Below, in pieces: positions 3,001 through 58,200 of a stretch of DNA of 64,000 nucleotides (the first letter of the stretch is position 1; the number at the start of each line of letters is the position of its first letter). The translations under genes and the position numbers were made by a program. The notes under the pieces are model-generated. The model saw nothing but the letters and a program-made list of their open reading frames with translations. It had not been told where the DNA came from and ran no database searches. Origin of the DNA: Psammoneis japonica (Eukaryota); contig QPGO01000084.1 of assembly GCA_008632985.1 (NCBI GenBank), forward strand, positions 124,001 through 188,000, read 5' to 3'.

Positions 3001-3120
3001 TGCAGTCGAGACAATCGACTGCAAACACAGCAACTGACTTGACAGAGATCTGCAGGCCTCCAGGTGGCGACAGAATCACATCAGCCGACAGACAAAAGAG
3101 CATTGAATGTAGAAAATGAA
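1..3120 (+). mobile_element. Degenerate Ty1/Copia-like (CoDi-type) LTR retrotransposon pol remnant, TpA/CpG-depleted
   Basis: Integrase-like segment PHQQHQNFAESCCQTVKNMANTIVDCFESPDCTWLLALMHVCFVLN (~1025-1165) lies before an RT-like segment (ALDQCNSSCKWGDTMDLEMAQLRE...SLHGFRLTIFLAELN, ~2155-2290), giving INT-before-RT order. Many stops, frameshifts and deletions; LTR not delimited; end approximate. Confidence 0.7.
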
Positions 3121-3154
3121 CATGCCATCGTGAACTTGAACGTGTTTGAGCCAA

Positions 3155-4491: not shown

Positions 4492-4999
4492 AATCTTGTG
4501 TGCTTCAGCGGCGAGCGTCAGTTTCTATCTAGACTATCTCTCCTGAATTGGTGATGTTGTTCGCTGTGCAGTGTGCAGACTCAATCATTTCTTGCAACTT
4601 TCCCGGGTCGTTAATCAACTCAGCAATGATTTGCGACCCTGTCGCATGGCCAGGGACGTTGAATGAAATACGCCTCCCAGCCACGAGCGGCGTGATCCTG
4701 CATCAGTGCTTCCGCTGGCAACAATAAAGGCCTCTCGTCATCGTTGCTGCCGTCGGCGGTGCGAAACGAAGAACTCGGATTAGGACTGTAGGAGTTGAGG
4801 CCAGTTCGAGAGCGCTTGCGAGCAGGAGCAAACATGGTTGAAACGACGGCGAGTGTTGTTTTGCGTCAACGTCTGCGGGTTGTGAGAGCGACGACGATGC
4901 GAGTCTGGAGTCTGGAGTCGTCTCATGGTAGATCTAACGAAAATCGTACGACGAATCTTAGCAGTCAACGATTGATCAATTGCCGCCACCAACTAGCAG

Positions 5000-5650
5000 T
5001 AGACTTGCGGCACCAGCTCAGCTTGCCTTTGCTCAGCCATCGGCTGAATCGAGAGCTCTGACTACTGCAGCAGCCGCACCTCCGTATCCACCAAGGTATG
5101 CAGCAACTGCCACCAGGCACGGGACCAGTGAGGCCAGGATATGCTCATCAGCAGCAGCAACCGGCACAGCCTAGTAGACCGCCTACAACTCCTCAACCAA
5201 CGTTTGCGCAGGAACGTTTGCGCAGATTCCACCAAAGACTGTAAAACTCATGGTGGCGGTACAGCAGGCTCCTCCGCCATCTGCGTATGCATCTTCGAAT
5301 CCGCGTTAGCAGAGCACTCCGAAGCCTACAATCCTCAACCGGCGGGTGGCGGTCCTTCGCAGCCGCAGTACAATTCTTAAGGAAGCCAAGCAGCAGCTCC
5401 GCCAGCCTTTGCAGGACAGCCGTAGTATCTGCCGCAACGGCAACAGCAGGCCTATGTACAAGCACCGCAACAGCAGCCTGGGTTTGCAGCACCGCCACCA
5501 CAATCGCATCCGGGACAGCAACCTCCGGCAACGACAAATTTGTTTGCAGTGGCGGCTCCTCCGTCATTGGCGCCGTGCCCCACCATCTGCCTAAACAATC
5601 CAAACTCGACATTGAGAAATGATCCATTTACGCAACTAGATGATGCAACA
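5000..5650 (+). pseudogene. Pro/Gln-rich coding-like fragment with stops and frameshifts
   Basis: Readable pieces GMQQLPPGTGPVRPGYAHQQQQPAQP and QQQAYVQAPQQQPGFAAPPPQSHPGQQPP are interrupted by stops. Confidence 0.35.
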
Positions 5651-25534: not shown

Positions 25535-26804
25535 TAATACGAAATACCTATCAATTGTCATAATTAAAAGTAGCAAATTTCATTTACAATTTTTTAGTCA
25601 ACCTCAACAAAAGTTCAACAGAAGTGGCGCGGTTCGATCGGCACCACGTAGAACCTACGGACTTCTCAGTACACACAATTCTGACGACTGACAGACCAGG
25701 TAAAACGCAGAATCACGTCAAGTCTGACGATGGCTAATTACCGCCACTGACGGCCACAATGGACGTCAACATAACGAAATGAGTAACTCCATGTTTTGTA
25801 TGTGCATCGTGTATCATTGCTGAATGGAATTTAGGATGAATTCGACTGAAAATCGGCGAAAGGATGATGTTGTGTTTCGCGCGGCGTTGGTGCGTAGAAA
25901 CGCGTAGATCATGTGCCAGAGAGCAGAATTTTTTTGACGCAAAAGATTCTCACAATCATTTGCTTTGCTCGTCTTGTCCATGCTCTTCATCAACACTGTC
26001 ACAGCTCCCATCAAACATCTCTACTGTCAATGCAAGAACCAGATGCATCCCCAATCACACCGGGGATGAATCTGAAGCGTCTGCTCAACCGCCACCGGAG
26101 CAGACGTCAGTTGAGCTGCAGGGTCTCGTTGAAGAGACATCGGCATCTCATCGCAGCGTCGTGCAGTCTTCATTTCCCTGGGCACCTCAATTGTGACATT
26201 CGCAAGTTGGCTGTCAACACGGCACCCTTTCCCCGGCTGCACTTCTTCATGGTTGGCTTTGCACCCCTCACGAGCCAAGGATCCAAGCAGCACAGCGTCC
26301 TTTCCGTCCCCGGGTTGACGCAGCAGTGTTTTGACGCCCGGAACATGATGAGCACCGTGGACCCCCGCCACGACCGCTGCTTGACGTGTGCTGTTCTGTT
26401 TCTTGGCCAAATGTCGGCCAAGGAGGTGGCCGAGCAAATGCTCAACATGATGAGCAAGTGGCGTTCTTCCTTCGTGGATTCCGCAGAACGTGAAGAACTC
26501 CATTTGTGACATGCCTCCGACGGGTCTGCCAATGTCGAGCACCTTTGTGGGCAATGCCACGGCCATGTAGAAATCATGGACTCGAGTCGTCAGTCAGTTC
26601 ATTGCTGTTTCATGGAAGCAAAAGCAATCATTTTGATTTTCGATTCTTGCCGCCATCACATGACGTCAGAGCACTGGCCTCTTCGCACATCCTGCTACGA
26701 ACAGAAGCTCGCAACTTTTGTTGGACTTTTGTTGAGGTTGACTGAAAAATTGTAAAAGAAATTTGCCACTTTTGGTTGTGACAATTGTTGGGTGTTTCGC
26801 AGCA
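25535..26804. mobile_element. Non-autonomous long-TIR element (Pack-type) carrying a beta-tubulin fragment
   Basis: 95-bp ungapped inverted repeats at 25535-25629 and 26710-26804 (15 mismatches by eye). TSD not found. Confidence 0.7.
26158..26580 (+). pseudogene. TUBB: Beta-tubulin internal fragment
   Basis: [37 protein letters not shown]...[21 protein letters not shown]..., then after a frameshift [21 protein letters not shown]. Confidence 0.92.
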
Positions 26805-27254: not shown

Positions 27255-27621
27255 TGCAGTATGCGACTGTTATATACATATTTATGATTATATATTATTT
27301 ATATGTCAATCGTACCACAGTCGTGGATGCGTACAAAGGACAGAACGATCACACAGAGTTGATCGGATGTCGAGAATTGCAAATACGATCGATTGACGAT
27401 GTTGACATCTTACGTGTCAATAGCAATCGTATCCGGACAATCTGTTGTCACGAATATATTCTCCGAAAGGCCTTTTGTCTGTAGAAGCAGTACAGAAGCT
27501 TTAGGCCATTGAGAACTCATTCGGAGAAACCAAAAATCACAGAGTAAAATCCAATCTTATAATTTCCACTTTTCGTACACTATTCTACTTTCGTTTACAC
27601 TCGTTCTTCGAGCATAGTGCA
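27255..27621 (+). repeat. 5' LTR
   Basis: Direct repeat of 31634-32000; one difference seen. Confidence 0.95.
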
Positions 27622-31633: not shown

Positions 31634-32000
31634 TGCAGTATGCGACTGTTATATACATATTTATGATTATACATTATTTATATGTCAATCGTACCACAGT
31701 CGTGGATGCGTACAAAGGACAGAACGATCACACAGAGTTGATCGGATGTCGAGAATTGCAAATACGATCGATTGACGATGTTGACATCTTACGTGTCAAT
31801 AGCAATCGTATCCGGACAATCTGTTGTCACGAATATATTCTCCGAAAGGCCTTTTGTCTGTAGAAGCAGTACAGAAGCTTTAGGCCATTGAGAACTCATT
31901 CGGAGAAACCAAAAATCACAGAGTAAAATCCAATCTTATAATTTCCACTTTTCGTACACTATTCTACTTTCGTTTACACTCGTTCTTCGAGCATAGTGCA
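31634..32000 (+). repeat. 3' LTR
   Basis: Direct repeat of 27255-27621. Confidence 0.95.
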
Positions 32001-37500: not shown

Positions 37501-38330
37501 TTTGACTTTGGATGTGAAAGTACATGATGTTCTCATTGATTCTTTGTCCAACGAAGACAAAAGCGTTCGGTAGATACCAGTAGTGAGATCCTGTTGGTGT
37601 GCGCGCTCGGATTGCTTTCATACACGCTGTTGCTACTCGACGTGTTTATGGAAGACGCAAAACTCGGTAACGAAGAGACCAAGCTTGCTAGTGTTCGAAA
37701 CCAATTGGTGCGGATTTTTTGTGCTTTCATTTCTTTTCATGAAGCACTCAAAGACTCGCATTGCGAGTCTCCTTGTTACCTGATGTGAACACCCTCCTGT
37801 CCATGGCATCTCCCTTCATCAGTGTAATGATATGCTACTCTCTTGGAGAGAGAAAAGCAAAGTCCAGCATACCATACCTACAGTAATGTAGAAGGGTCCA
37901 GTGGTAATGCGGGAGCTACAGTACCGGAGCTTCTTGGGAAGAGAACCGTTGTTCACCTTTCAACACAGTCGCGTTTGCAGCCGCGAGTCATTCAGCTCAG
38001 CCCATCCACGTTTTCGTTTCGTTTCCGTCGGCTTGACGAGCGTAGGCTTTTCCGTTTGAAAGAATTTCTAAACCAAATCCGGTTCTCATCGCATTCGCAC
38101 CAAAGCATTGTTGACATCGGGAAGGCAGACTTTTGCAACAAGCAAGTCGACTCCCTTTGCAAAGGCTGTAATCCTCGAATTCAGAATGTAGATCCTCTAG
38201 CTTGTTTAGACCTAAATGAGGGATATGCAATCTCCCATGCATATAGTCAATATCTAAACGGTGGCACATTCACCAGCCTCGTCACTACCGTGATTTTATA
38301 TTACTATTCTTCTACCGCATAACCGCACAT

Positions 38331-39284
38331 TTACACACTCTGGAACTCTCCCTTTATTGCTCGTTCACCTTGTGGAACAACATTTTCGAGCCGTTGAATC
38401 AGACGCTTCTGCAATCCAAATTCACTGTCCACCGCTCCCATCAAATGGGATCGACATGCTCACACATGTCTCCGACAAAGGCATACATTAACAAATTGCG
38501 CGACAGCGCTCGATCAATCCCACGCGATCGTAAATAAAACAATTCTTCTTCACTCAAATCCGACACAGTCGCTCCGTGCGTACACTGGACATCATCCGCA
38601 ATAATTTCCAAGGACGGAACGGTCCAAATGCGGGAACGGTCCGAAAGCAGAATGGTACGTGACAATTGTTGACTATCCGTTTGTTGTGCCGATTGCTCCA
38701 CCCGAATGCGTCCACGAAAGGAGGCCGTGGCGCGGCCACCCACCATGTTTTTTGTCCCTGACGACTGACCGTGCCTTGACCGACGTGATGGATATTGGTC
38801 TTCATGTCTCCACGCTGCGCTCCACCGGAAAGCATAAAGCCATTGACCGTAGCACTTGCTTCGGGACGAAGAAGCGAGACGGAGAGTGCGACACGGACGC
38901 GGCCACTTCCGCCGACCCCCAAGAGTGTGCCGGTATACGAGGCAGCGTCACCCATGCAATGAACATCGATTACTTCGAGGTGTGTATCTTGCAGTTCAGC
39001 ACGTTCCGCTTCCACCTCTCGTGGAAGTGGCGTACCTTTTTCAACATCCTCATCATTCAATTCCACACCCGCCGTCACCATGCCACCCGTTTCTTCCAAA
39101 TAGGAATGCGTCACATTGGCGCCCGTCTTGACAAACATTTGCGTTTATCCGTTGCGCAATTTGGGTCGAACCATTTCTCCGGATACATCCAAATCGATGC
39201 AGGACTGAATTAAGGACAAGTTGCTTCCTTCCTCGGCAATGATGAGTGCACGAGGATGACACGAAACGCCCTTTTCACTTTGAT
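38331..39284 (-). pseudogene. sufD: Fe-S cluster assembly protein SufD, 3' part
   Basis: HPRALIIAEEG, FRGRIRVEQSAQQTDSQQLSRTILLSD, PSLEIIADDVQCTHGATVSDL..EELFYLRSRGI. In-frame stop at 39145-47 and frameshifts near 38750 and 38440. Confidence 0.9.
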
Positions 39285-40376
39285 GAGTAAAGGGAAAAAA
39301 GTGTGTCACAAGTGTGTCAAGTGTGTCAGTGTACCATGCCATCACGTAAACTCTACACAAACTGCATCCGGGTGACACACACTCGTTTACTTATGGGTGA
39401 CACACTTAAAAACATAAGGGTGACACACTTACTGACTCACCTTTTTACCGATTTGAATTGCCCCTGACACACTTATTTTTCAATTTCTACAGCCCCCTTG
39501 CCGGTACACAAACATGTAGAATGCACGAAAATCACGACCAAATTGATGGCGGAAAAGGGAAAAGTGTGTTGTACGATATTATGTACCAACGTCTATGCAA
39601 CCAGAATTGGATTAGAGTTTTATGTTTAATCCCGCGGATTTCCGCAGTACTGACCGCGTGGATTTCTACACTGTGCGTTGAATCATCCACGCCTTTTCGT
39701 ATGATGCGAACCACAAAACATCGAAATAGCAAATCGACGCCGACCAACAGGAGCTTCATTTCTTCCGCAACCAACTCTTTCTCTCCTTGTTTCTGCTCTT
39801 CACCAAAACTTGACAAAAACTCTGGTCACACAAAGAAATTAACAGCACTCGTTTTTCTTTTGTGTCTGCCAAATTGTGTCCAGAACACTGTTTCTACAGG
39901 ACTCTGGTACAGATTTTGTGTAGAAAAATTGTGGCACCTGGTTGTCACTAATTCTGCTTTGCCAGTGGTGAACACATTGATCTAGTGTGCTCAGAGCACT
40001 TGCACTGGTTGGAGAAAACCACGAAGAACACCAGCAGGGAAAAAGTTGGCTCATTTCTGCACCAACAAACTTTTCTCACAGCAAGCCCAGGCGCCGGTCG
40101 CCGCCCCTTTCTGGAAAGCCCCCTGCTCCTCTCCTGTTCAGTGTCGTTCCCCAAGAGGCTGAGAAAGTTTTTTGTTCAGATCTGAGCCCAGTGCACAGCA
40201 CTGCATGGTGAGTTCCATCCACACTTTGCAGCTTCTTGCTGGTCTTTGCATTTTTGCAAAAAGGAAGTCTGGCCCACCCGCCGGACGCGGCGGCCCAATT
40301 TTTGGTTTTGACAGACAATCTCAACTCAAGCTTGTTCAACAAATCTTTTCTCCTGAAAAACACCATCAGCTGAGCC

Positions 40377-42420
40377 ATGAGCACCTCCAAGGGCGAGCCT
40401 GAGGATGGGCTCACTCCCCCCCCACAAGCACAGCAAGGCTTCTTTGCTCAGTTTGTGCAGCCCAAGCTTTTGCTGGAGAGGATGGAGTTTGAGCAACGCC
40501 AAAGAGACCTGCTTTTGATGGTGAACAATGCAGCTGGCACCAATCTTGTGCCTCCTGACCTTGCCACACCTTGGCCTGCTCCAGCTCAAGCTGGCTTTTT
40601 GCCAATGCAGCCCAGCTCCAGCCAACCTGCGGCCCGCAGAGCTCAGGTGTCACAGCTGTCGCCGTCCTCCGTTGGCAGGAAAAGCACCCAATCACTGGGG
40701 CAGCCTCACTCTGCTGCCAAAAGCTTCCCCTCTGCCAAAGCTCTGTCTGGCACTTCAGACCTGGGCCCATCTGCTGCCTCTGTCCCTGGCTTGTCCAACA
40801 TCAACGTGGGCTTGCCCGAGCTCCCCAACTCCCACTCTCAAGTGTGGTCTGTTGCTGGAGATTTGCCAGGCCGCTGCCCAGGTGTTGGCTGGGCAATGGG
40901 AGTCTACTCTTGTGTTGAGCGTGGCACCAAAAAGACAATTTGCAAACACTGCTTGGGTGTCCACATTTGCACAGGTTGCAGCCTTTTTGTTGAAAGGCCC
41001 CGCCAGCCACAGGGTGGAAAAAAGAAGTTCATGCCTCCCATGCCATCAAAGCTGGTGTGCCCAAACTGTCCAAGCAACGCAGAGGGCAAGGTGCCAGCAA
41101 TGAAGCACATGCCTTGCACCTGCACAATGACCTTCACAAAGGATGGAGGCTCTGCTTGGCTTGTGCAGCACAAAGGAGCACACAAACACCCCAAGCCCCC
41201 GCCATCAAAGTTGACGCCTCAAGCACAAAGTGCGTTTGACAATCTTGTCCATTTGGCTCCAGAGGCAACTCCATCACAGCTCAGGGTTGGCAACCAAACC
41301 AGGGCACCAGTTTCAAAGCTGCACCCATCATTGTTCAACTTGGACAGAGCGAGTTATTTGCGCCAAAAGGCGCTGAAGCCCATGTCTGTCCGCTCCTCAA
41401 TCGCAGAGCTGGCAAACTTCAGAAATGATGTGGACAGATCCTTCATTCGAAGTGAGCAACTCACCACAGAAAATCAACACATCATTGTGCAAAATGATGA
41501 CATGATTGAGCTGTTGAAAGAAGGCAACAGCCCCCTGCAAACAGACTCTGTGGAAGGTTTTGTTTTTGATCCGGACTTCCAAGGTGAAATCAATGTCACG
41601 TTCACCTCAGGGTTCGACCTCACCCTGCAAATGTGGACCCCTCTTTGCATCAGCATTCTGTTTGGGAAAACAGAAGCCCACTGCAAGGTGCACTGGCAGG
41701 CTGTGCTCCAGTGCACACGAGCTGAGTCGTGGCCACAGTTTGTGGACGAGTTTCCTGGCAACACCAGTGACTTCTCAGATGCCATTCGGAAGGGTTTTTT
41801 TGCAGCCATGAAAGTGTTTGCAAAAGAAAAGTTTGACCAGGCAAAGGTTGCAGATGAAGAAACCAACCACCTTTGCAAGTTTTGCAATGTTCACTTTGAG
41901 AGGTCACGTGCCAGAGTTGCCCGCAACAGAGGTGTTGTCTCTGCTGATTTGGAGGGCGAGTTTGACTGCCAGGTAAATGAGATGAGGTCATTTGCACAAG
42001 GACAGTGCGAAAAGTTGGAGAGCAGCTGCAAACTGTTCTTCAAGTGCTTCCCAAAGGCCACTTCTTGGTTAAAGTGGCACCTCAATCCCAAACGAGCCAC
42101 AATTTTTTTCGATGCTTGCAAAAATCTCAATGAAAGGCAGGCAAAAAAAATGACAGCCTTTGTGATGACACCAATGCTCAAGAGAATGTTGGGAAGCGTT
42201 TTCAAACATGCACAGTCAGGAAAAAAATGACAGTTGGAGAAACGCTTCTTCATGCATGGAAGTTCTGCAACTCCGATCAACAAGACAGGAAGGCAGTTCA
42301 GGCTGGGCTCCCCACTCGTCATGGCGCTTTTCAGACAGTTGAGAGTGGCTGCAACAGTCCAAGGAAAAGGAGCAAAAAGCGCAAGTTCACAAATGATGGG
42401 AGAGCTCCTGACATGTCAGA
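40377..42420 (+). pseudogene. MULE transposase with GCM-like Zn/DNA-binding domain
   Basis: CLGVHIC..C...RP...CPNC..HMPC...HKGAHKHPKP; DDE-core-like LQTDSV, TSDFSDAIRKGF, CNVH (CxxH), WLKWH; DTNAQE follows a frameshift in an A8 run (~42143-42150). Confidence 0.75.
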
Positions 42421-42559
42421 AAAGCTGCTCAAGCGATCACGAAAAACTTCCAAAAAAGACGCATCAACAATGCCAAGCAAGACACAAATGCAAACATCAG
42501 TCACAGACTTCTACTCTTGGGATGACCCCAATTCCATGATGGCCAGGATGTTTGACCCA

Positions 42560-44897
42560 CCAAGGTGGGGTGTGGAGGGCACCCCCTCACGCAGAGGAAT
42601 CACAAACACATGCCCTGTGGACAGCTTTGCTGTTCTTTTTGGAGGCCTTGACCACCTTGGTCTGCTGAACAGGCCAATGGCTGAGCTTCAACAGCCTGAT
42701 CACCTGTTGGCAAGAACTGTGGCTCTGATGAAGGTGGGCAGGCATGATGATGCTCGCCATCTTTGGGTGGCTGACCGGACAGTGCTGCCTTGCATGGATC
42801 GCACAGTGGTGAGGAGCAGCACACATGCAAAAAAGTTTGACATGTTTGGCCCATCAATTTCGGTTGTTTTTGGTCACCCATTCTTAGAGTCATTCGAGTT
42901 TCAGGTCAAATTTGAGTGCAACTGCACTGGTGGAAAAGATTGGTGCCCCAATGCACAGCCAACCAATGTGACAGAAACACGCACTGTTGTTGAGTGCATC
43001 GATGACCTCTCTCAGCTGCAAGAGACACTTGACAGGTGGGTGGGTGAGCACCTTTCAAGCTGTGCATGTCTGGAAGGTGGCGGAAAGGAGATGTCTCCTG
43101 ATGACCTGCAGCAGCTTAACTGGGAGACTGACACCACTTTGCAGGCAACAGTGGGTGCACACGCGGGCAATGCCTGTGGCGGCACTGTTTTTTCATCTGG
43201 AAAAAGAGTCATCAGGTGCCCTCATTTCTTGGTGTGTCACGGGCCAGCAAAAGGTCCCACATCTGACTTGTCAACTGTCCCAAAGTCCACAATCTTTGCA
43301 GGAAAAAGAGGGCTGCTCAGGGGGACCATCAACACACAAAACAACATGCACCACACTTGCTGCATCAAGCTGCCTGTGGTGGAAAACAGAAGAACAGCTT
43401 CATTGCACCACAAGGTGCGCCATGGGCAGGGTGCCAGCAGAAGACATCAAGAATCTTGTGGAAGAAGCAACTGGGCTTCCCAATCATCAAGATCTCTGGG
43501 ACATGGCTGCAGAGTTGGGCATTTCTTTTGCGAGCCAACCTGGCAGTGAGCAAAAGGAGACACAGCCTGCTCAGACAAGTGTGAACAGTGCGCTCTTTGA
43601 GGGAGAAACAGTGTCGCTGCCTGTCATCAAATGGGGTGTGGACCCAACACCAAAGCTCTGTGAGTTGACCAACACGTGTTCGCTGGACTCAAATTTGGCA
43701 TTGATGTGGATTTTGCTGAGAAACAATGGTTTCACCAGCAACTCAGTTGCACCAAAAGCTCACACTCTGCACAAGGCAATGAAGATGATTGACAAAGGTC
43801 AGTCAGGAGAAGCAAGGCACATGATCCACAGGTCTGCCCCCCTCTCTCCACAGCAGAAGACACTGCAGATTTCAAACAACCCACAAAATGTTGTTGTGGA
43901 CTGCTGGGAAAGTGCAGGACTGAGGGCACAACACTTGCTGCAAGGAGGAGCCAAGCACAAGTTTCAAATCACACTGACCAGCTGTGCCAATCCATTGTGT
44001 CTGTTTGATTGCAAAATGTCAAAGTCAACAGCAAATCAAGCTGTTGCTTCCCAGAACTCAAAGTGGACTGACCTTGAGTTTTTTGAATCTGAAATTTTCA
44101 AAAAGCAAAGGAGAGTAAATTGCGCGATGTGTCATGAAAGGACAACTGTGAAAACAGAGGAGCTGTTGTCATTTGAGTCCAACTTGTTGGTTGCAGACAT
44201 GGGGCTTGGGGTGGACGAAAGTGGAAACAGCAGCATTTCCTCTCAAAGATTCAACACTTTGCCATTTGTTGTTCCTCACAAACACAAAGAACTGCATTTC
44301 AAGGGAGCAATTTTGGCAACCAACAACCACTTCAAAACCATTGTAAAGTTGCCAAACTGCTTTGTTGCACATGATGGCATGTGCACTCCACAATGTCAAG
44401 TGCACTCTCTTGAGGTCACAGAGGCGGAGGCAAAAGACATGCAAAACAATGGAGAGACTGAGTTTCATCTGCAGTGGCTTTTGCACGAAGTGTTGGACAG
44501 GGAGAACAGAGCAGTTCTTGCCAGCCCAGAGAAACAACTTCCAGAAAACCTTGACATGCAACATGACAGCACAGTGGAGGAGTTTCCAGAAAACATGGAG
44601 CCCCAAGATCAACCAAAGGAGCTTCCAGAAAATCATCCGCAGCCAGAAGCAGCTTCATCAACAACCACAGAATTGGCAAATGGCAGCTCTCAAGAGGAGC
44701 TCAGGTTTGTGTTTGTGGACACAATGGAGTCCTGGAGAAAGTGCAGGGGATGTGAAGGAAGAGTTAAGAAAGGGCAGGAGGCAATGCAGGTGAGGGTGCG
44801 GAGAAGGCCAAAGAAGGAAATCTTCTGCCACACAACAACAGAGTGTGTTCAAAACACACTGTTTTCACTGCAGGCGAAGATGGAGATGCAATGTTAG
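42560..44897 (+). pseudogene. MULE-borne region with two papain/USP-like protease domains and a C-terminal Zn finger
   Basis: Duplicated module WGV..TP....TNTCPVDS / WGV..TP....TNTCSLDS with downstream His boxes (NNMHHT; NNHFKT...AHDGM); RKCRGC...CHTTTEC. Confidence 0.55.
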
Positions 44898-45209
44898 ACT
44901 CATTTTGCAGCCAGGACCTTGCTCATTTGGAGAGCGATGCTGTGACAAAAGCACAAAGGGTGCTCCAGTCACTGTTGGACACAGAAACAAGCAGCGCCCC
45001 CCCTTGAGGGCATCGCCAGGCAACCAGGAGAAGAGCTGCCTGGTGCCCCAAAAAGCTCACTTCCATCTGACTTTTTTGGCTGTGTGGAGACTTGTTTTGT
45101 CACATCACATTTTACCACATCATTTTGGTTTGTGACAAAATTGCATTTCATGTCACTTGGTTACGTGCACATTGTGAAAGTGTGGCATTTAATTGTGTGT
45201 TTGACTCAA

Positions 45210-46000
45210 GTGCAACATCACATCACACCACATGACACAACATGACACAATGTGACATTGTGCCATGTGATGTCACACAACATGATGTGATGTCAAATGG
45301 TGTGGCTGTTTTGTGTCATGTGATGAACTGCACAAATGTCAATTGTCTGTCTCAAGTTCTGCAATTTAGTTTGTGACAACATTTCATTTTTTGGTGTCAT
45401 GTGATGAGCTGCAAAATTGTCAATTGTCTGTGTCAAGTTGTGCAATTTTGTCAAATGCAGAGCAAAGCAAATTCAGACATTGGTTCTGCAAAGTCGTGCA
45501 ATTTTGTTGAATGCAGAGCAAAGCAAGTTCAGACATTGGCTCTGCAAAGTTGTGCAATTTTGTCAAATGCAGAGCAAAGCAAATTCAGACATTGGTTCTG
45601 CAATTTCATTTAAATTCAGACATTGGTTCTGCAATTTTGTTCAATGCTCACACCAGGTTAAATTGAAAATTTGCTCATCTCAGGTGAAATTGTGGCACAA
45701 TTCAAGCACCATTGCATGCAGCGTGATGGTAAATCCAGACATGGGCTCTTCAACATTTAGCTCATCTCAGCTCATTTTAGGTCAATGTGACATGATGTCA
45801 ACACATTAAGTTGCACAATGTCACACGTGAACGAAATTGTTGTGTGTTTGGCTGAAGTGCAAAATCATGTCATCATGTGACATGACATGACATGTCATCA
45901 TGTGACATCACATGACATGATGTGACACAACAAACATGGCATGACAACATGTGGGTGTAAATGCCGGTTTAGTGTTGACACATGAAGTCACACAATGTCA
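45210..46000. repeat. Low-complexity block: 5-bp periodic YRYNR microsatellites flanking ~57-bp tandem repeats
   Basis: catca/catga/cacaa/tgtga/tgtca runs at 45215-45295 and 45865-45950; gtgcaattttgtcaaatgcagagcaaagcaaattcagacattgg x3 at ~45440-45600. Confidence 0.8.
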
Positions 46001-46023
46001 CACATCAAGGAGTTTCTGCACCA

Positions 46024-47217
46024 TCACATGCAGCGCAAGATTTTTTCAGCCTTTGCCGGATCTGGTGGACAAGCCTTCATTGCGTTTTTCAACTTGGCGC
46101 GACTGCTTTTGTCCAAGGCTTTCAACACACAAACCTTCTCTCCTCCAATTCTCTCAAAACAATCCAACATGGTCACCTTTGTTTTGAAGTCTTTGTCGCT
46201 TTTGTGGCCCTCCTGAAACTCAACGCAGCCATGCCATGCCTTGGTCACAGCAGCTGCAGATCGACCTTTAAAAGGGTTGGACTTGTGCTTGTCCTGTTGC
46301 TCGTCCTGCGGCTCGCACTGCTCCTCCTGTGGCTCATCATGCCTCTGCTGCTCGTCCTGCAACTCCTGCGGCTTGTCCTTCTGCCCATCCTCCCCATCAC
46401 CCACCTGCTCATCTTCCTCAGGTTGGTCCTTGTCCCCAATGTGGTGCTGTTCGTAGTTCTTTGGATCCTTGAGATTTCCCCTGGGGGCAAGTCGGTGCGA
46501 CAAAATGGTCTTCATTGCCATCTGCTTTTTCCTTCCATGTTGTGCAACAATGGCATCCTCTGCTGCCACCGGGCACCTGTTCCTGGGCTCATGTGCTTCA
46601 ACAACAGCAACCTCTGGGAAGGCCTTGCCACCGTGGCCCGCCGGTGCGTCTTCTTCTGCCATGCCCTTGTGACGGGATTTGTTGGGCTTCTTTCCTGTCT
46701 TGTTGCTCTTCTTCTTCCTGTGTTTCTGGGGCAACTTCGCCACCTTTACATCATCAGAGCTGTCAGCAGCAACAGCATCATCAGAGGAGCTGCAGGCAGA
46801 GGAACCGTCAGTGTCCTCAGAGACATCATCATCCAAGTCGCTGTTTGGAGCCGTCTTCCTTTTCTTGTTGGTGCCCTCAGAGACATCATTTTTTCCCCTT
46901 TTCTTCTGAAGACTCTTCAAGTGCTTCCTCCAGGCCTCAAAGTGCACACATTTGGGGCCATGCTTCTGGCAGCAGCTGGTGAGGGTGGTGGCTTTCTGGA
47001 TGGAATGCTCCACCCCATGCTCGGCGGCGCAAGGCAAACAAATGTGCTTGGTGGGTGTTTCCTCCACCATGCTGGGTGTCACCATGTTGTTTGCCCCACC
47101 TCCTGTGGATGCGGCAAAACAACGGATTCCTCCTTCCCTCATGGAAGTCTTGACAGCTGCCTTTAGTGCACGAAAGTCATTCTTTACACTTGACGACATC
47201 ATGGTCCACCAACACAC
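46024..47217 (-). pseudogene. Second, convergent MULE ORF (accessory, charged low-complexity)
   Basis: Long minus-strand ORF near the right TIR with K/D/E/Q-rich tracts. The convergent two-gene layout is typical of MuDR-like elements. ORF length is partly inflated by stop-codon loss. Confidence 0.45.
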
Positions 47218-47480
47218 AAACGATGTGAATGTGAACTTGGACGGTGTGCACCGCAGTGGGTGGCCGCGCGTCAGCTCAGAATTCTGATTGCATCGTGTGG
47301 TGGTGGCTCCTCTTCACATGCACACGTGGCAGCGTGTGCGGGCCTTCTGTCACTGGACGTCACCGTGACGTTGTTTTAATCGCACTGGACGAAACGCGCG
47401 CAAAATTGCACGTAAAAAATTGACACACTTGAGTGGCACACTCATGACACACTTGATGACACACTTTTTTCCCTTTCCCC

Positions 47481-47990
47481 CACTTTGATCACTGCTGTTT
47501 CCACTGTCGGCCGTCATGGCATTGACCAAAAGAACGGGTTTATCCTCATTTTGAGAAGCATGTCGAACACGCGCCACGGCGCCGGCTCGAATGGTGTTTG
47601 GGGCGGCAAAGCATGCTGTGCCTTGTTGAGCATCAATGGCAAATTGACTGGTGGGATCACCCATGTTGTGATCGGGTCCACTGAGTTTGCGATGCGACGA
47701 CAGCAGGGGGGTCAGACGGTCAATGATGACATTTCGTCACTTTAAAAAGGGGTCATTTCTTTGCTCAAGGGGGTTGTTGAGGGACGAGGCAAGTGACCGA
47801 GCACTGCAACAACTGTCCCGCCTGATGTCACCGCATCTGCAAGTTGCCATGAGAGCCAGCCGAAAACGCTCTGCGCGGGGGGGGGGCATGACCTGGTGCA
47901 TCCGCAAGCTGAGTGACTTCCGCCGCTCACACAAGCTCGCTCTGCGCGTGACTTCTCCACACCATGATCACGCTTTTGGGTCAAATTGAA
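47481..47990 (-). pseudogene. sufD: SufD upstream part (TpA-depleted), continuing across the MULE
   Basis: SHRKLSGPDHNMGDPTSQFAIDAQQGTACFAAPNTIRAGAVA...KPVLLVNAMTADSGNSSDQS joins in frame to EKGVSCHPR at 39275 once the element is removed. Far boundary approximate. Confidence 0.8.
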
Positions 47991-50250
47991 GCTCCAAAGA
48001 AATGTGGGGGGAGGCGCAAAGCCCGTGTGAGACCTCCTTGCAGCTCTTGCAACAAAAAACACATCCAGCAGTGCACTGTCATGGCAGGAGACAAGGCAAG
48101 TCATGGTGCCCACACAGCGACTTTGTCGTGCCTGGTGAAAACAGCGGACAGCCACAGCATCAAAAGTTGCTGTTCTTGGCACTGGAGGAGCTCAAGACGC
48201 GCTCTGCAAGTCCAGCCAGGTGAGGGGCACTCCCAACTGGGAGGTCTGCAAGTGGTGGGTGAGGGGCCTTGCCTGCCTCCTCGCGCCACTCACTGGACTG
48301 TGCACACGAGACTTTTTTAGATGATGATGCCACACCACATTTCTGCGTGCTGTCTTCTGCAAAATTGTTCCAGGCTCCTTTTTTTTGTGAAGCCAAACAA
48401 GGCTTTTTATTTTCCACATTTGTGAGAACGAAAACAGTGTGCTTCAAATGTGGAGGAGGAGGCACTTTCACAAAATGGCCCATTTTTCTGTTGGCAACCA
48501 CAGAGCATCTTGCACACAGAATCTGCAGGCAAATGCCACACAGCCCCACCCAGGGCTGGTGAGCACATCTCAAAAAGGAGGCAAGATCTGGCGGCTGCTC
48601 TGCGGACAGCTGTGGAAAAGAAAACACAAGCAGCGATGGTGACACTTCTGCCTCCTGGATTTTTGACTGGTCAATGTGGGCGACAGGCAGGCTCTGCAGC
48701 TGACTCTGGATGGGCCAGAGCAATCTCTTGTGGAAAAATGACAAACCTTGAGTTCAATCTTTTGCAGAGGATGAAAGAAATGACAAAGCGAGCACGGAGA
48801 AAGGAGTCATGAAAAAGCTGAAGCTTCCAACTTGCTGCATGTCCTGAGAGAACAAGGTGTCAATTTCATGACACGCTGCACATCATGCAAGCAGCAAAGG
48901 CAAGTTGGTGTGCCAGGCACATGTGTGCAAAAACATGCAGACACATCTTCAATCTGGCAGCCAGCTGTGCTGAACAAGCTCTGTGGCCCACCTGATGGCA
49001 CTCTGCATGTGGCTATGCCAACCCAGATGTGGTGCATGCCTTTCAACAAAAGTCAAAGTGAACAATGTTTTGAAAGCATTGGCGAGTGGTGCCAAGCAAA
49101 AGAAGAACAAAGATTGCTCCCCTTGCTGCTGTGAGGCATTTGTGTTGGCCATGTGAAGCAAAAGTGGCAGGAGCCAGCCAACACACACAAAGAGACCAAG
49201 TCAGAAGCTGTGGCCTTGCACAGAGGAGACAGAGGGGGCACTGCAGTGGCAACAATGACTGTGCAGGGCAGTGATGTGCACAGGCTCAGATGCTTGACTG
49301 GGCAAGAGAGTGGAACATTTGCAGGTGCAAATGTTGGGAACATTTTGCAGCAAAAAAGTTGCTTGATTTTTGTGGTTGCACTCATGGGTTTTTCCCAATT
49401 TCTGTTGGGACTCTCTCTGTTTTGTGTGCCAGCTTTGGCTTTTCATCACAGCAAGAAAGTTTTGTGACAATGATGGTCAAAGTGCACCACAAAATGCAAA
49501 CAGCACAGCCATTTGGCGCCAGCCATGGGAATCTCATCAGTCTGGCGCCACAGCACATGTTTCAGCAGCAGGTGTCAGTGCTTGATGGCCCTGCTGCAGG
49601 CATTTTGTTGTGGCCACATTTTGTCTTCTGCCACACTGGGGGAACCACAATCTCTCTCCACAGAGTTCCGTGGCATTTTTGTGTGGAGCCACTGACAAAA
49701 CTGACCTGCGGTCATGCCGCTGTTGCTCTCATCAGAGAGGTTCTGCAGCAGGGGATGCCAGCAGATCACAGGTGAGCTGCCAGCTCTGATTTCAAGAGGA
49801 AGGGCTGAAAACAAAGTTCTGTTGAAGAAATGGGCAGTCAGCTGACAAACAGAGCACTCCTCCGCCCTTGGGCTGACTCTTCCAGTGCCCAAAATGTGCA
49901 CGATGTGCTCTTGACCTGAGGGCTGGCTCAAGACAACACCTTGCACCATCTCCAATTGCCAAAACAAAGATGTGGTGTGCCCACATCATTTCATCCTGCT
50001 TGAAAGATCTTTCGCACTTGATCCACACCTCTCCCCATTGAATGCTCCTCACACAGAAATCACAAGAGCTGTTGGTGTGCCGCTGTGATGGTGTCAGTTG
50101 AGACTCCAATTCTTGCGGTCCATGCTGTTGCGATGAGACAAGGCAAACAAGGACAACAGCAGTCCAAACAGTGGTGTGCTGCAGCCGGTGACGTGACGCG
50201 ACGTGGATGGCTGATGAGTGATGCATGAGATGATGAGAGCGATGAGCGAT
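47990..50250. other. Unclassified TpA/CpG-depleted degenerate sequence
   Basis: Same compositional signature as the neighbouring transposon; no motif that I can assign. Confidence 0.5.
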
Positions 50251-50471
50251 GAATGAGGCAGGGCGCTCGCGAGGTTGGAGAAAACGGCATGTAGACTACG
50301 AAGTCTGGCGGGGCCCTCGTCCGTCCGTCCCTGTCACCTTCAGCCCGCTTCCCGCCGTTCTTCCATGCCACGCACATCTTGAATGTACAGTTAGCATCAT
50401 GCCATAACGGTATCAATCGTAGTGTTGTTGTTGACTTGTGAACTATTTCTGTTCTAAGCTATGCCATAATC

Positions 50472-51398
50472 ATGCTGAAGTCGCTAAGGTCTAGTAGATT
50501 AGTCTTCCATGTGAATCGTCGAGTTGTCTTTTCAGCTCAGAAAAGTCAGTCGCAACAATGTTTACTTCTAAGAAGATGGAAAAGCGCGCATTCCTCCGAG
50601 GAAGCGCAACGCCGGGCCTATGATTTTTACCGCAAGAAGCAACCAAAGTCTTGGCTTTCTAGAAAGAAGAACAACCCTATGTCTCGTGAAGAGCGTGCTG
50701 TTCAAATGGCATGGTATAGTTTTGCCGTGGTGGTAGGTGCGCTGGGTGCAACATATGCGTCTGTTCCGTTGTACAAAATGTTCTGCCAAGCCACGGGTTT
50801 TGGTGGAACGACACAACGAGTTACTCTGACGGATTGGGCGCAGCAGCAAGAAGAACGTGAAGCGAGTGGAATACCACGGCAGATTCAAAACTTGCTACAG
50901 CCACTCTTGGAGAAAGCTCCCAAAGGATTGAGAAACACGGGCCGTGTGCATACATGGACCGACGAAGAAGCGGCTGCGAAATTGGCAACGCTAAAACCCG
51001 TGGAGAATTCGAGATTAATCACGGTACGATTCGATTCGACGGTGGGTGATGTGCTACCTTGGACATTTGTTCCTACGCAATTGGACGTCAAGGTGGTTCC
51101 GGGTGAAACCGCTCTGTCCTTCTTTACAGTTTCCAACAAATCCAACAAGGCCATCACCGGTGTCGCCACTTACAATGTGCATCCTCCCAAGGCTGGATTG
51201 TATTTCAACAAGATTCAGTGTTTTTGTTTTGAAGAACAGCGGCTGCTACCGGGGGAAACTGTAGATATGCCTGTCTTTTTCTTTATCGATCCGGATTTCT
51301 TGGAGGACCCACAACTGAACCATGTGAATAACATTACACTGAGTTATACCTTTTTCCAAACAGACGAAGAGGAAGATGATGATGGAGGGGAAGAATAA
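50472..51398 (+). CDS. COX11: Cytochrome c oxidase assembly protein COX11 (mitochondrial)
   Basis: Basic transit-like N-terminus; YASVPLYKMFCQATGFGGT; VVPGETAL; YFNKIQCFCFEEQRL; DMPVFFFIDP; ITLSYTFF. Confidence 0.96.
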   Translation: MLKSLRSSRLVFHVNRRVVFSAQKSQSQQCLLLRRWKSAHSSEEAQRRAYDFYRKKQPKSWLSRKKNNPMSREERAVQMAWYSFAVVVGALGATYASVPLYKMFCQATGFGGTTQRVTLTDWAQQQEEREASGIPRQIQNLLQPLLEKAPKGLRNTGRVHTWTDEEAAAKLATLKPVENSRLITVRFDSTVGDVLPWTFVPTQLDVKVVPGETALSFFTVSNKSNKAITGVATYNVHPPKAGLYFNKIQCFCFEEQRLLPGETVDMPVFFFIDPDFLEDPQLNHVNNITLSYTFFQTDEEEDDDGGEE

Positions 51399-54029: not shown

Positions 54030-55058
54030 CTCTTTTTCATGACAAGCGGCTTGGCATGGGACTTGTACAAGCTACACCACGATATCTTTTTCGAGCTAGC
54101 GGGCAGGAGCCGGATACACTTGCTATCTCGCAAGAGGGTAATGAAACATTGGATTTTGCTCTTGCGTTGCCTGAGCTTTTGTTGTTATCTACCGTACAGC
54201 ATTTCCGTTGGCGCCTGCAAGAAGGAAGAAATGGTTTTTCGTGGAGACAGGGATTTTTCCGTGAGTCCATGACAAGGCATGAGTACCACAGTCGGAAACA
54301 AGTTACAATTACAGATGAAGCTGGGGATTTTCTCTTTTGTCGAGAGTGGTCCATTGGCGTATCCACCGCTTCAGCCTGAGTGACGAGGGCACGTCGTAGG
54401 CAGTGTCCTCAACTGTTTTTTCCATGCCGCGGCTACTTTTTCGTGGCGTCGACCGTCGGGGCAACGTGGTGGAGCAGGCGGTCGATCAGCGCGAGCAAGG
54501 TCATCTCATTCAAGATTGACGACGAAACCCGCGTGCTACGGCAGGTCAGCATGGTTGGGAACCTTTGGGGTGGCAATCGCGGTGCGATGTCACCGCGACA
54601 GTGCATACGTCATGACGTTCAAAGAAATGGATCCGCTGCATCCATACATCATCGATCTGTCGATTCCTGAGAACCCCCGGGTCAGCGGAGACCTCAAGAT
54701 TTATGGTTTCAGCACGAACCTTCACCGAGTGGAACCGGGAGAAGTCCTCGGTGACGGAAAGGACGTGTCAAGTTCGAGCGCATGCTTGGGGACGAAGGTG
54801 TCGCTGTTCGACGTGAGCGACGAAACAAACCGAAAGAAGTGGCAATGTGGACCTTCAAGGGAAGCTAGTCAAATTCAGAGTGAGATAACCGGGCATTTTT
54901 GCACTGAACAAAAGCGTCAACTCGCAATCATGCCCGTTCCTATGACCGAAGATAGAACGGTGTTTAGCGGCGCCATAAATCTCAAAATTGTGGAAAACAT
55001 GAAAACAAAAGCGAGCAGCAGTGTTCCTTCCCTGCCTTTCAAAACTAACGCTAGCTAG
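54030..55058 (+). pseudogene. Beta-propeller-domain (Beta_propel-like) protein remnant
   Basis: AVRCHRDSAYVMTFKEMDPL.PYIIDLSIPENPRVSGDLKIYGFSTNLH...GTKVSLFDVSD matches the family pattern VRF.GD.AYVVTF..VDPL.VIDLS.P..P...GELKIPGFS.YLH...K.SLFDVS; frameshifted. Confidence 0.7.
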
Positions 55059-55259
55059 AGAGAACCATGGTTGTCTCCACCACGATTTCATTGAATCATA
55101 GAGCGGCAGCAGGAGCCCGGATCGTGGCCGACAACATTCTCATGCGTTTCAAAGTTTTGTTGCAGAGCACTTCTAGTCTTGACATGGATCGTCGTTAAGT
55201 GCTATTTTTTCACATGGCTAGTGATTTTTCAATTTCCCGCACTTCGCCTGTGCCCGTCC

Positions 55260-58200
55260 CCAAGCACGCGTGAGGTGTGGTTGTTACATTTGACGAACCA
55301 CAATTTGAAACAAAACACAGTCCAAGCACATCTGCCAAGAAACAAGTTCATGTTCTGTCCACTGTTTTACAAAAAGGTTTGGAACAAGCTGCTGAAGATG
55401 ATGGAGAGTGTTGCTCAATTCATCGGAATTGAACGGAGATGTGCAATTCTTTCTTGCAATTCTTTCTTTGGTCAAATTGATTTTGCAGGTCTTGTGCATT
55501 GCAGGGAGATTTTTTGTGTGCTGGTGCATGCTGTTTGCAGAAAATGTCAGACTTGTCATGATCCAAATGTTTCTTTTTCTTTTGTGAACAAGTGGCCTGT
55601 GCCAACAGAATTGTGAGAAAAAATGCTCACAGTGTGCCAGCCAGAATGGAAATTTCTTGCTGCAGATCTGCAGAGCAACCAAGTGATTGAACACAGCTGT
55701 GCCAATGACTCTGACTGGCTTTTTTGGCTGAGGTTCAAAGTCTGTCAGCAAAAAGGTGAAATTTTTTGCCAGTCTGAATCGAGGTTGGAGTTGGCAGCTG
55801 CAACCAGTGCTTGGGCTGACTGCATTTGGACATGAAATTTTCCATCTCAGGAGTGCACCAAGGGACACCAGGAGATTGTCTTCTTTCACATTGAAACTGC
55901 ACAAATCTTCTAAACCCAACAATGTCTGCAATGAACCTCTGCATCTCTCTGCCCCACTCAAGTGCCAAGCTCTGCATTTTGCAAACACAATTTGGCCAAC
56001 AGGAGGCTGTTGTCCCCTTTCTAAAAGCCACAGTGGTCCCTGTGCTCAAGGCAGATTATCTGGACAATGATCCTGCCAGTTGTTGTGTCCAGTTGAGCAA
56101 AACTGACAGCAAACAGTCTGGTGCACCAGCTCAAAACAAACAGCACCCTTTCACCCTGTTGTGCAGGTTTTTGGCATTCTCGTTCTGTGGCTGACCCCCT
56201 TGTGTGTCTTGTTGCCAAGGTCTGTCTTGCTTTTCAAAGCAAGCCTGCTGTGCAAACAACTCTCACTTGGCTCAACCTCAAGCCAGCATGCAGCTGAGTT
56301 GAACATTGGCATTTGCTGGATGTCATGTGCAGCTGGCTTCTGCTGCCATGTTGTGCCCACTTTCATCAAGGACTTCTCTGTCATTGCATGTTTTGAGTCA
56401 AATGTGGTGATCACCTTAGTCAACAAGCTGGCAAAAATTCCAGAGCACCCCAAGGTGCCATCTCTTCTCCTGCTCCATTTGTCATTTGCTTGTGGAAGAC
56501 AAAATTTGGCACAGACTTCCCTTGGCACAACAACGAAGCACCAAACTCAGGCACGTTCCCACCCTGATAATTTCGGCCGTAAAATAAATATAATTTGGCC
56601 AAATTTACGTATTTACGGGCGTCAGGCTGGGAACGAATTCGATCGGTAAAAAAGATCAAAATCTCATGTCGAGCTCGGTGAGGACGCTACACGCCACAGC
56701 ACTGTTTACACTGCTACTACAGCACTGGCTAGAGCTGCTAGCTAGAGAGACACCACAACATTGTCAGCGACAATCGTTGTCCATTTTGCGATTGCTCTAC
56801 GGTAACCCAAGACTCAGGATAACACCAGTGAAGGTCAGAAGAAATATATCCAACATTCAATCCACTAGCAAGAGTTGCAGAGAGATCAGAAAGACGCACG
56901 AAACAATGGCATGCAGTGAGACTACAGCATGTAAAACTACTAAATGTAATTTCTACAGAATGTGAGGTACTAAAAGGCACCATTGTTAACTCTTGCGGTT
57001 TACCATTGGCCTAAATCCATTTCAAAGAGCAAAGTAACAAAGAGCAAGTCGCAGAGAAGGCCTCCAGACAGTAGAGTAAGGCACTGTGAGGCAATGCCGA
57101 CGATGTTGCGCAAAACATTGACCCCCACCGGCATCATTGTCCTAACTTCCGACAAGATTGATGAAATAAGTGCACACAGCCTTCTTCATAGTCATATTCT
57201 ATCACAACAAGCCTTCCTGTTGTTGTTGAAGTGACCAAAATATTGCATTCTTGACTCTTGACCGTCAATCAAGTAACCTTGAGTATACACCAAAGAACCA
57301 CCTCAATGTAACATCAGATCATAATATATTGCTACGAGGATTCGGCCTCAAGTCTGTAGACGTATGGTTTGTGAAGAATCCCAACGCGAAATCTGAACAA
57401 GAGAAACGAAGACATCAAAAATACCATTAGTCGACACGGTCGTCATAAGCCATAACAACAACGAAAAATCAAAATTGTGACAGCTTGATCGTATCGAGCG
57501 TAGTCTTATTGACCTGTCTCTACATTCTTACCTTCGTAGACAGGACGGTCGTTCGTGTATGAACGGGTCCGTTCATGGCAGCAGCCATCATGGTTGTTGT
57601 GCGATCGGAGCGGAGAAAGAAAAAAAATGGGCGGCTTGTGTGACGTGGCACGTTCGAGCTCCCAAAACGCCGAATTTACCGTGAAAATTATATTTACGGG
57701 AGAGAATTTACGACGACCGACACCTGTCGTCGTAATTTGCTGATAATTTCGGCTGTAAATTGGCGGATGGAAAACAGACGTGCGATTTTTCTTGTACGAG
57801 AGTTTCTACAGGAATTTTGTGTAGAACGAAATTATATTTATTTTACGGCCGAAATTATCGGGGTTGGAACGTGCCTCAAGCTTTTTGCTGATGATCATAC
57901 AACACATGATGTGTCTGGTTGCAACAATGGAGTTCTTGCCCAAAAACTGCTTGACTTTGCATCTGCTCAGCCACCTGAGCCATTGGACAAGTGCACCACT
58001 CAGAAATGCCATCCCTTCCTTCTTGCACAAAACAACCACAATCCATGGCCTTGCATCACCAGGCACAACATCATGCTCTGGCCTCCAAACCTCAAGGACA
58101 AACATCACAAGCAGCCTTGCATTGAAGTCCTTGGAGTTTTTCTTAATCCAAAATCATTGTGGAGCATCACCTCCATGCATTGCTTGACAACTCAAGTCAG

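What the first reader, a model, noticed from the sequence alone, without database searches (positions are those of the whole stretch)
39285..40050. Mutated domain does not match element boundaries: graded edge inside the MULE
The first ~450 bp of the MULE keep abundant TA (gatattatgtacc, cgtctatgc, cgtatgatg). TA thins out to ~39990 and then nearly vanishes. At the other end depletion runs past the TIR to ~50.2 kb and fades just before COX11. Inference: targeting follows a chromatin domain with soft borders near genes, not exact repeat homology.
Basis: partly seen in the sequence, partly recalled or inferred. Interest (0 to 1): 0.7.

Follow-up and report, generated by a model that had tools for sequence, protein, structure and literature searches.

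The report
Spared transposon end in hypermutated domain
In this diatom, a process that rewrites TA steps to TG or CA has erased most of a transposon and even a piece of the host gene it jumped into, yet left the transposon's first 700 bases untouched, which suggests the cell marks a stretch of chromosome for mutation rather than the repeated sequence itself.

Summary
The core claim holds; the "graded edge" does not. The element (39285-47480) is a Mutator-like transposon inserted in one allele of sufD. Its first 700 bp keep all 32 TpA, while two sister copies lost 25 and 26 of them. At sites ascertained without this copy it kept 19/19 there against 26/76 elsewhere. So the mutated domain stops inside the element.

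The thinning and the drop at 39990 are inherited from the progenitor. This copy's own edge lies unresolved between about 39985 and 40304, and step fits beat gradients at both ends.

On the right, depletion crosses 219 bp of single-copy sufD. The rest, up to 50290, is mostly older repeat relics, so it is not a 2.7-kb leak into unique DNA.

In three families, 7 of 9 element ends facing TA-normal DNA were spared, against 1 of 13 facing depleted DNA. The best reading is a position-defined silent domain guiding a TpA adenine mutator; neither the enzyme nor the chromatin mark is shown. Reads did not confirm the spared end.

TpA hypermutation is known from one Bigelowiella preprint. This scan reported spared ends before, on other DNA of this genome.

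The parts
38334..39275 (-). 3' half of sufD (homolog residues about 375 to the end) on the inserted allele; in-frame stop at 39145, frameshifts near 38749 and 38442 (these two may be assembly errors); TpA normal
   Evidence: tblastn with diatom SufD homologs; Pfam SUFBD_core; o/e 0.55 over 37800-39284; other allele differs at 39145
39276..39284 (+). left copy of the 9-bp target-site duplication
   Evidence: identical to 47481-47489; empty-allele joint with 9 letters fitting both sides
39285..47480 (+). Mutator-like (MULE) DNA transposon, 8196 bp, present on one allele
   Evidence: sister copies start at the same base; joint 39275>47481 in runs X1 and X2
39285..39328 (+). left terminal inverted repeat (about 45 bp), followed by short subterminal repeats
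   Evidence: matches the right end reversed
39285..39990 (.). spared margin: 32 of 32 TpA kept; no private TpA or CpG loss, one other transition, one transversion, one 3-bp insertion
39991..40304 (.). interval that holds this copy's true left edge; too few informative sites to place it or measure its width
   Evidence: last spared site 39983; first changes that most relatives polarise to this copy at 40272 and 40304
40377..43549 (+). transposase ORF (GCM-like N-terminus, D-D-CxxH-W-E core), 1-bp frameshift at 42142; already TpA-poor in the progenitor; a further open frame runs to 44897
   Evidence: progenitor density 0.46-0.62 sites per 100 bp
45091..46000 (.). AT-rich interior with tandem repeats; TA-rich in the progenitor, erased independently in all three copies (this copy kept 12 of 39)
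46024..47313 (-). second open frame (429 aa, no Pfam match); this copy kept 7 of 21 informative sites in 46001-47480
47438..47480 (-). right terminal inverted repeat
47481..47699 (-). single-copy sufD piece (homolog residues about 296-376; begins with the right TSD copy) trapped between two repeats and hypermutated
   Evidence: 1 TA against 11.7 expected; 13/219 differences from the intact allele against 23/1476 on the left; two near-invariant residues changed in a TpA-type way
47702..47800 (+). terminus of a second repeat family, lacking its first 10 or so bases; the sufD N-terminal half is missing here
47809..49234 (+). old relic (65-70% identity) of a third family (TE3), with a nested high-copy short repeat at 48279-48500
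49267..49719 (.). old repeat relic, about 62% identity to four other places
49994..50148 (.). weak match (69%) to one other place; the last detectable homology
50186..50291 (.). right edge of the domain: CpG returns at 50186, TpA at 50292
   Evidence: one run-X1 contig spans 48228-51500 with one difference
50472..51398 (+). COX11 gene, unmutated

Best explanation
A young MULE, whose progenitor already had a TpA-poor transposase unit but TpA-rich left end and interior spacer, inserted into one sufD allele about 220 bp from a cluster of old repeat relics (shown; the order of this insertion and of the deletion that removed the sufD 5' half is not known). After insertion a TpA>TpG/CpA mutator erased most remaining TpA from about 40.0-40.3 kb to 50.29 kb, including the single-copy sufD piece, and left the first 700-1000 bp of the element untouched (shown by sister copies and the intact allele). 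The target is therefore a stretch of chromosome, not a homologous sequence: it bridges short unique spacers between repeats and stops a few hundred bases short of a junction with ordinary DNA (shown as a pattern in three families). I infer that the stretch is a silent-chromatin domain (CG methylation with H3K9/H3K27 methylation, as on diatom TEs) and that the mutator is a DNA adenine deaminase preferring T-A-pyrimidine. Single edges look abrupt or unresolved; the average edge is graded because its position varies from about 150 to over 700 bp between copies, and one end is itself graded.
For: Sisters C88 and C80 lost 25 and 26 of this copy's 32 left-end TpA, often in opposite directions. At sites ascertained without this copy it kept 19/19 on the left against 26/76 elsewhere (Fisher p=5e-8), and 8/8 against 26/43 if only sites with TA seen in a sister are used (p=0.04). 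Private CpG loss is also absent from the spared margin. The sufD piece differs from the intact allele at 13/219 against 23/1476 (p=0.0003) and has N>D and L>P at positions conserved in 113/113 and 112/113 homologs, both TpA-type, against none in 176 conserved columns of the left half. Across 22 of 32 element ends (copies with interior retention at most 0.7), ends facing TA-normal flanks kept 92/120 sites in the first 300 bp and 43/117 at 400-1000 bp; ends facing depleted flanks kept 42/160. By end this is 7/9 against 1/13 (one-sided p about 0.0015, worked by hand). Loss ran about 1000 times the transversion clock (10 transversions in 7041 bp between this copy and C88), like the Bigelowiella process. 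Sisters lost RTAY 15/16 but YTAR only 6/12. Diatom TE methylation coincides with repressive histone marks (PMC9998398, passages).
Against: No methylation, histone or enzyme data exist here, and the nine deaminase-family matches in the genome look like ordinary housekeeping enzymes by my reading of their translations. Two of nine ends with TA-normal flanks are mutated to the last base (TE6 window right end, TE6 C38 left end), and one end with a flank below the cut-off is spared (TE6 C171 left). The flank cut-off (o/e 0.33) was set after seeing the data, and sites within an end are not independent. TE3 copies C21 and C41 share the same states from 337 to about 750, so part of their pattern may be inherited. 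The left neighbour is a promoterless dead allele, so no active gene start explains this edge. An earlier scan note reports the opposite pattern (ends converted, core spared), which I did not test. The progenitor's own depleted zone (39990-45090) matches the transposase unit better than a domain with two margins.
Confidence: 0.6

Rival explanations
1. Targeting is set by the element's transcript or small RNAs: mutation nucleates on the transcribed transposase unit (from about 39990), spares the upstream promoter and TIR, and reaches termini only by spreading from neighbouring repeats.
For: The progenitor was TpA-poor only in 39990-45090, which brackets the transposase frames, and TA-rich on both sides. 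This copy's spared zone ends at about the same place. TE3 also has a TA-rich terminus and TA-poor body.
Against: The non-coding spacer 45091-46000 was later erased in all three copies. Short TE6 copies have spared margins at both kinds of end. No transcript start was measurable.
Confidence: 0.13
2. The left end is a mosaic: recent gene conversion or recombination with an unmutated copy, or a polishing or consensus artefact of the assembly, restored TA in 39285-39990.
For: The margin is almost pristine and its end coincides with the inherited step. The run shows more copies than the assembly search returned (depth of several hundred against about 60 per haplotype). Read data did not confirm the spared alleles (see Tried and rejected).
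Against: The margin carries letters private to this copy (39437, 39441, a 3-bp insertion near 39682) that a majority consensus would remove. Private transversion counts give the same order in the left end and in 39991-40844: this copy 1, C88 1, C80 4 and 9. Six other ends in three families are spared the same way.
Confidence: 0.12
3. A RIP-like, pairing-based system recognises repeats; short unique linkers between repeats are mutated by a heterochromatin arm, and ends escape because pairing is weak there.
For: In Neurospora the DIM-2 arm mutates single-copy linkers between close repeats (10.1101/344036, passages), and RIP leaks at least 930 bp into single-copy DNA (PMC2973834, passages). The sufD piece is such a linker, and the right edge lies near the last homology.
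Against: 700 bp with close homologs elsewhere is wholly unmutated. The RIP passages I read describe mutation within repeats and leakage outward, not retreat inward. The Bigelowiella target was single-copy. The substitution is the reverse of RIP.
Confidence: 0.1
4. There is no locus-specific edge: the whole profile is inherited composition of the element family.
For: The step at 39990 and the thinning before it are indeed inherited.
Against: This copy lost 50 of 76 informative sites outside the margin and 0 of 19 inside, while sisters lost about 80% inside.
Confidence: 0.03

Closest known systems
TpA hypermutation of integrated viral DNA in Bigelowiella natans (bioRxiv 10.64898/2026.01.13.699255; parts 1-3 of 5 of the main text read, plus a term search)
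   Same: TpA>TpG/CpA transitions, about 1000-fold over background, confined to foreign-derived regions including a single-copy one; TE-like genes are TpA-depleted; an adenosine deaminase is proposed.
   Different: Here a diatom, a DNA transposon and a host-gene fragment, with CpG loss alongside. The preprint's main text has no occurrence of diatom, boundary, border or edge, so it does not describe spared margins. Its supplements were not seen. There the rate was measured directly; here it is inferred from copies.
Fungal RIP: RID and DIM-2 arms, and RIP leakage (10.1101/344036 and PMC2973834, passages)
   Same: Repeat-associated transition hypermutation; unique linkers or neighbours of repeats can be hit; one arm depends on heterochromatin.
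   Different: Opposite chemistry (CpA>TpA creates TpA; here TpA is destroyed). RIP needs homology and leaks outward; here 700 bp of homologous sequence inside the element is spared.
DNMT5-dependent CG methylation of TEs in Phaeodactylum tricornutum (PMC9998398, passages)
   Same: TE-restricted CG methylation co-marked by H3K9me2/3 and H3K27me3 would explain the CpG decay and supply the domain.
   Different: Methylcytosine decay cannot remove TpA; no A>G mutator appears in the passages read.
Mutator-like elements / IS256 superfamily (PMC5225508, passages)
   Same: TIRs, 9-bp TSD, subterminal repeats, N-terminal zinc finger, DDE core with CxxH and W.
   Different: Short TIR (about 45 bp), no Pfam MULE match, and a transposase nearly free of tyrosine (0.3%).

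Membership tests
Bigelowiella-type TpA hypermutation | A>G and T>C changes confined to TpA | tested here: met
   25 of 40 differences to C88 and 26 of 43 to C80 in the left end are at TpA, all with TA in this copy; a lower rate of other A>G changes is also present
Bigelowiella-type TpA hypermutation | rate about three orders above background | tested here: met
   about 1070 times the per-lineage transversion rate; indirect, and lower against all neutral changes
Bigelowiella-type TpA hypermutation | confined to foreign or mobile DNA, homology not required | tested here: met
   genes on both sides normal; single-copy sufD piece inside the domain was hit
Bigelowiella-type TpA hypermutation | de novo mutation in some lines only; same enzyme | not testable with these tools
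   needs mutation-accumulation lines and genetics; deaminase survey gave no clear candidate
Fungal RIP | C>T at CpA, raising TpA | tested here: not met
   TpA o/e 0.03-0.12 in the domain, TG and CA raised
Fungal RIP | mutation covers the duplicated sequence | tested here: not met
   39285-39990 has close homologs yet 0 of 19 losses
Fungal RIP | single-copy linker or neighbour is mutated | tested here: met
   47481-47699
Chromatin-domain targeting | mutation edge coincides with methylation or histone-mark edge | not testable with these tools
   only a proxy: private CpG loss is absent from the spared margin (0, against 2 and 7 in the two later segments)
Chromatin-domain targeting | fate of an element end depends on its flank | tested here: met
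   7/9 against 1/13 ends spared, with three exceptions
Chromatin-domain targeting | soft, graded border at this locus | tested here: inconclusive
   steps fit better on composition, but no informative sites resolve 39985-40304; one TE6 end is graded
Mutator-like element (MULE) | 8-9 bp TSD and TIRs | tested here: met
   9-bp TSD here and at C88; none at C80; TIR about 45 bp
Mutator-like element (MULE) | DDE core with CxxH and W; N-terminal zinc finger | tested here: met
   invariant D229, D304, C342, H345 and near-invariant W403, W406 and E in 33 sequences; best fold matches ISCth4 transposase (E 2e-4; IS256 family, recalled) and the GCM domain
Mutator-like element (MULE) | Pfam MULE domain | tested here: not met
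   no match in the window frames or in 15 homologs (GCM below cut-off in 2)

The most novel reading that the evidence does not exclude
A chromatin-guided DNA adenine editor erases TpA across silent domains but leaves a margin of a few hundred bases at junctions with ordinary DNA. Transposon families have adapted to it: active MULE lineages carry TpA-purged, nearly tyrosine-free transposases kept under purifying selection, while their TA-containing termini survive in the spared margins. Support: Tyr is 0.3% here against 1.1-3.8% in 10 homologs, with Cys and His the commonest residues opposite homolog Tyr (24 and 17, tied with Phe 17; Tyr 13). Transversions between subfamilies favour codon position 3 over 2 in all four comparisons (p 0.003 to 7e-6). 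The element transposed after its body was already TpA-poor (two different TSDs). A transposase supplied in trans is not excluded.
Probability: 0.3. Interest if true: 0.82.

Novelty: new variant of a known kind. Interest (0 to 1): 0.55.

Why it matters
How the TpA mutator finds its targets is the open question left by the only published report I found. This locus gives built-in controls: two sister copies, an intact allele for a host sequence caught inside the domain, and a young insertion. Together they argue for position over homology and name a 300-bp interval where a chromatin edge should fall, which a methylome or ChIP can test directly.

Tried and rejected
Separate younger insertion at the left end: rejected, sisters are colinear across 39990.

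Gradient within this copy: rejected for 39285-39983; unresolved beyond.

Long leak into unique DNA on the right: rejected; most of 47702-49719 matches other loci, and eight open frames from 47672-50458 had no Pfam match over cut-off.

Read check of the spared end: inconclusive. Among the 40 of 996 rows shown, run X1 contigs carry only non-window letters at 39437, 39622, 39700 and 39728. X1 holds 0.65 of the sampled words, against my rough expectations of 0.61 if none and 0.85 if all left-end private words were held. Contigs drop variants, and window letters are also missing at single-copy sufD sites and in the element body, so this shows neither presence nor absence. The 13 differing letters in the sufD piece were not among the rows shown. 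No RNA holder listed.

Mutator search: PF00383 gave nine matches; seven translated, none stood out.

Searches with 54600-56548 and 3000-5200 gave too few full sisters to test those edges. Two fetched TE6 regions (L134, L135) were left out because their ends were not fixed, and five lightly mutated copies (10 of 32 ends) were dropped from the pooled count.

Literature: three searches aimed at a diatom or stramenopile report of this process listed only the Bigelowiella preprint; the library lacks most subscription journals.

Full report
Setting. The window is a diatom locus (the named best homologs of its sufD gene are diatoms) in which blocks have lost almost all TpA and much CpG while TG and CA are raised. 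The element in question runs from 39285 to 47480, with terminal inverted repeats of about 45 bp and a 9-bp target-site duplication. Its transposase has an invariant D, D, CxxH core with conserved W and E across 33 sequences, and its model best matches the ISCth4 transposase and the GCM domain. These are the MULE features given in PMC5225508 (passages), although no Pfam MULE domain is detected.

The insertion site. The element sits inside sufD: homolog residues 375 to the end map to 39273-38334 and residues 296-376 to 47700-47479, both on the minus strand. The N-terminal 295 residues are absent from the assembly. Two runs of one sample hold the empty allele: a joint 39275>47481 with 9 letters fitting both sides, and a contig that continues past 47699 with 851 bases not in the window. 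So this is one broken allele beside an uninserted one, and the left neighbour of the element is not a gene start.

Checking the observation. But a step fits both edges better than a logistic slope (left 39985, right 50290). On the right the only softness is CpG returning about 100 bp before TpA.

What sister copies show. The genome search gave 21 matches, two of them close, on contigs C88 and C80 (95% and 94%). Of this copy's 32 TpA in 39285-39990, C88 lost 25 and C80 lost 26, often one to TG and the other to CA; five more distant relatives that cover most of this stretch kept 1 to 7. At sites ascertained from the sisters alone, this copy kept 19 of 19 in the left end, evenly up to 39983, and 26 of 76 in the rest (7/16, 12/39 and 7/21 in three segments). 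With the stricter set of sites where a sister still has TA, it is 8/8 against 26/43 (p=0.04). The margin also shows no private CpG loss. So this copy was mutated after insertion, but not in its first 700 bp.

The visible step is inherited. Between the two sisters alone, ancestral TA-like sites run at 2.75 per 100 bp in the left end, 0.47 in 39991-40844, 4.64 in 45612-46000 and 1.44 in 46001-47480. The progenitor was therefore already TpA-poor from about 39990 to 45090. This copy's own edge lies between 39983 and its first well-polarised changes at 40272 and 40304, and its width cannot be measured.

The right side. The 219-bp sufD piece has 1 TpA against 11.7 expected (6.4 at the local genic rate, p=0.012), differs from the uninserted allele at 13/219 against 23/1476 on the left (p=0.0003), and has two near-invariant residues changed in a way that a single TpA transition explains, against none in the left half. 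This is single-copy host DNA that was hit. Beyond it lie a repeat terminus (47702-47800), an old relic of another family with a nested short repeat (47809-49234), another relic (49267-49719) and one weak match to 50148. The right edge, 180 bp before the COX11 start, is thus close to the end of a repeat cluster. A run-X1 contig spans it with one difference.

Replication. I repeated the test in the TE3 family (4 copies) and in a CACTA-like family from 25.5 kb in the window (9 copies). After dropping 5 lightly mutated copies, 22 of 32 ends remained. Ends facing TA-normal flanks kept 40/53, 31/38, 21/29, 15/22, 10/26, 12/27 and 21/64 sites with rising distance up to 1000 bp (81/109 in the first 300 bp without this locus); ends facing depleted flanks kept 42/160 in the first 300 bp with no trend. 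Seven of 9 against 1 of 13 ends were spared. The pooled slope comes mostly from edges at different depths, though the right end of TE6 C32 is graded by itself. Against this: two ends with normal flanks are fully mutated (one flank holds a short inverted-repeat element, the other is a 600-bp TA-rich patch within depleted DNA), the cut-off was chosen after the fact, and two TE3 copies may share early losses.

Mechanism. Shown: the substitution type, a preference for T-A-pyrimidine (sisters lost RTAY 15/16, mixed 30/36, YTAR 6/12, a reading taken from earlier scan notes and checked here), a rate about 1000 times the transversion clock, independence from homology, and dependence on the flank. Inferred: a silent-chromatin domain, of the kind described for diatom TEs (PMC9998398, passages), guides an adenine deaminase. 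I put this at 0.6. Rivals are transcript or small-RNA targeting (0.13), a recombined or mis-assembled left end (0.12; reads did not settle it), a RIP-like pairing system (0.10) and pure inheritance (0.03).

Comparison and novelty. The process matches the TpA hypermutation measured in Bigelowiella natans, whose main text says nothing on edges or diatoms (supplements unseen, and its window-cluster tables could bear on this). RIP shares linker mutation and leakage but has the opposite chemistry and does not spare 700 bp of homology in the passages I read. Earlier notes of this scan report spared ends on other DNA of this genome; they are unchecked and not independent support. What this locus adds is an allele-level control for a host sequence, proof that a composition edge can be a fossil of the progenitor, and signs that the family kept a working, TpA-purged transposase.

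Verdict. Observation partly confirmed; interpretation partly supported. A new variant of a recently described kind; interest 0.55.

Noticed in passing
window 25535-26804: CACTA-like non-autonomous element carrying a captured tubulin fragment (26186-26491, Tubulin_C); interior and right end TpA-erased, left end spared.
   Followed up: partly
window 39991-45090: The progenitor's TpA-poor zone brackets the transposase frames, while its interior spacer at 45.1-46.0 kb stayed TA-rich; unexplained by a simple domain with margins.
   Followed up: partly
window 40377-42140: Transposase has 0.3% Tyr against 1.1-3.8% in 10 homologs, with Cys and His often opposite homolog Tyr, and codon-position bias between subfamilies.
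   Followed up: partly
window 38334-47699: The only sufD in the assembly is a broken allele lacking its N-terminal 295 residues; the uninserted allele is in the runs.
   Followed up: yes
window 27255-27554 and 31634-31933: Identical direct repeats 4.4 kb apart (a young LTR-like element by my reading), with normal TpA between them.
   Followed up: no
window 56549-57876: Short element with 48-bp inverted ends and normal TpA sitting inside a depleted block; probably too young to be hit.
   Followed up: no
window 39285-47480 against C88 and C80: A lower rate of A>G changes outside TpA accompanies the main signal in mutated segments, a possible secondary target; part of that class is TG-versus-CA sites split by the classifier.
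   Followed up: no
L025:4700-4993 (C80 right end): This sister's right end faces normal DNA and keeps three TpA (window 47207, 47254, 47454) lost in the other two copies; it has no TSD.
   Followed up: partly
window 21161-22239: Six to seven tandem 156-bp repeats with near-normal TpA: repetition alone does not trigger the process.
   Followed up: no
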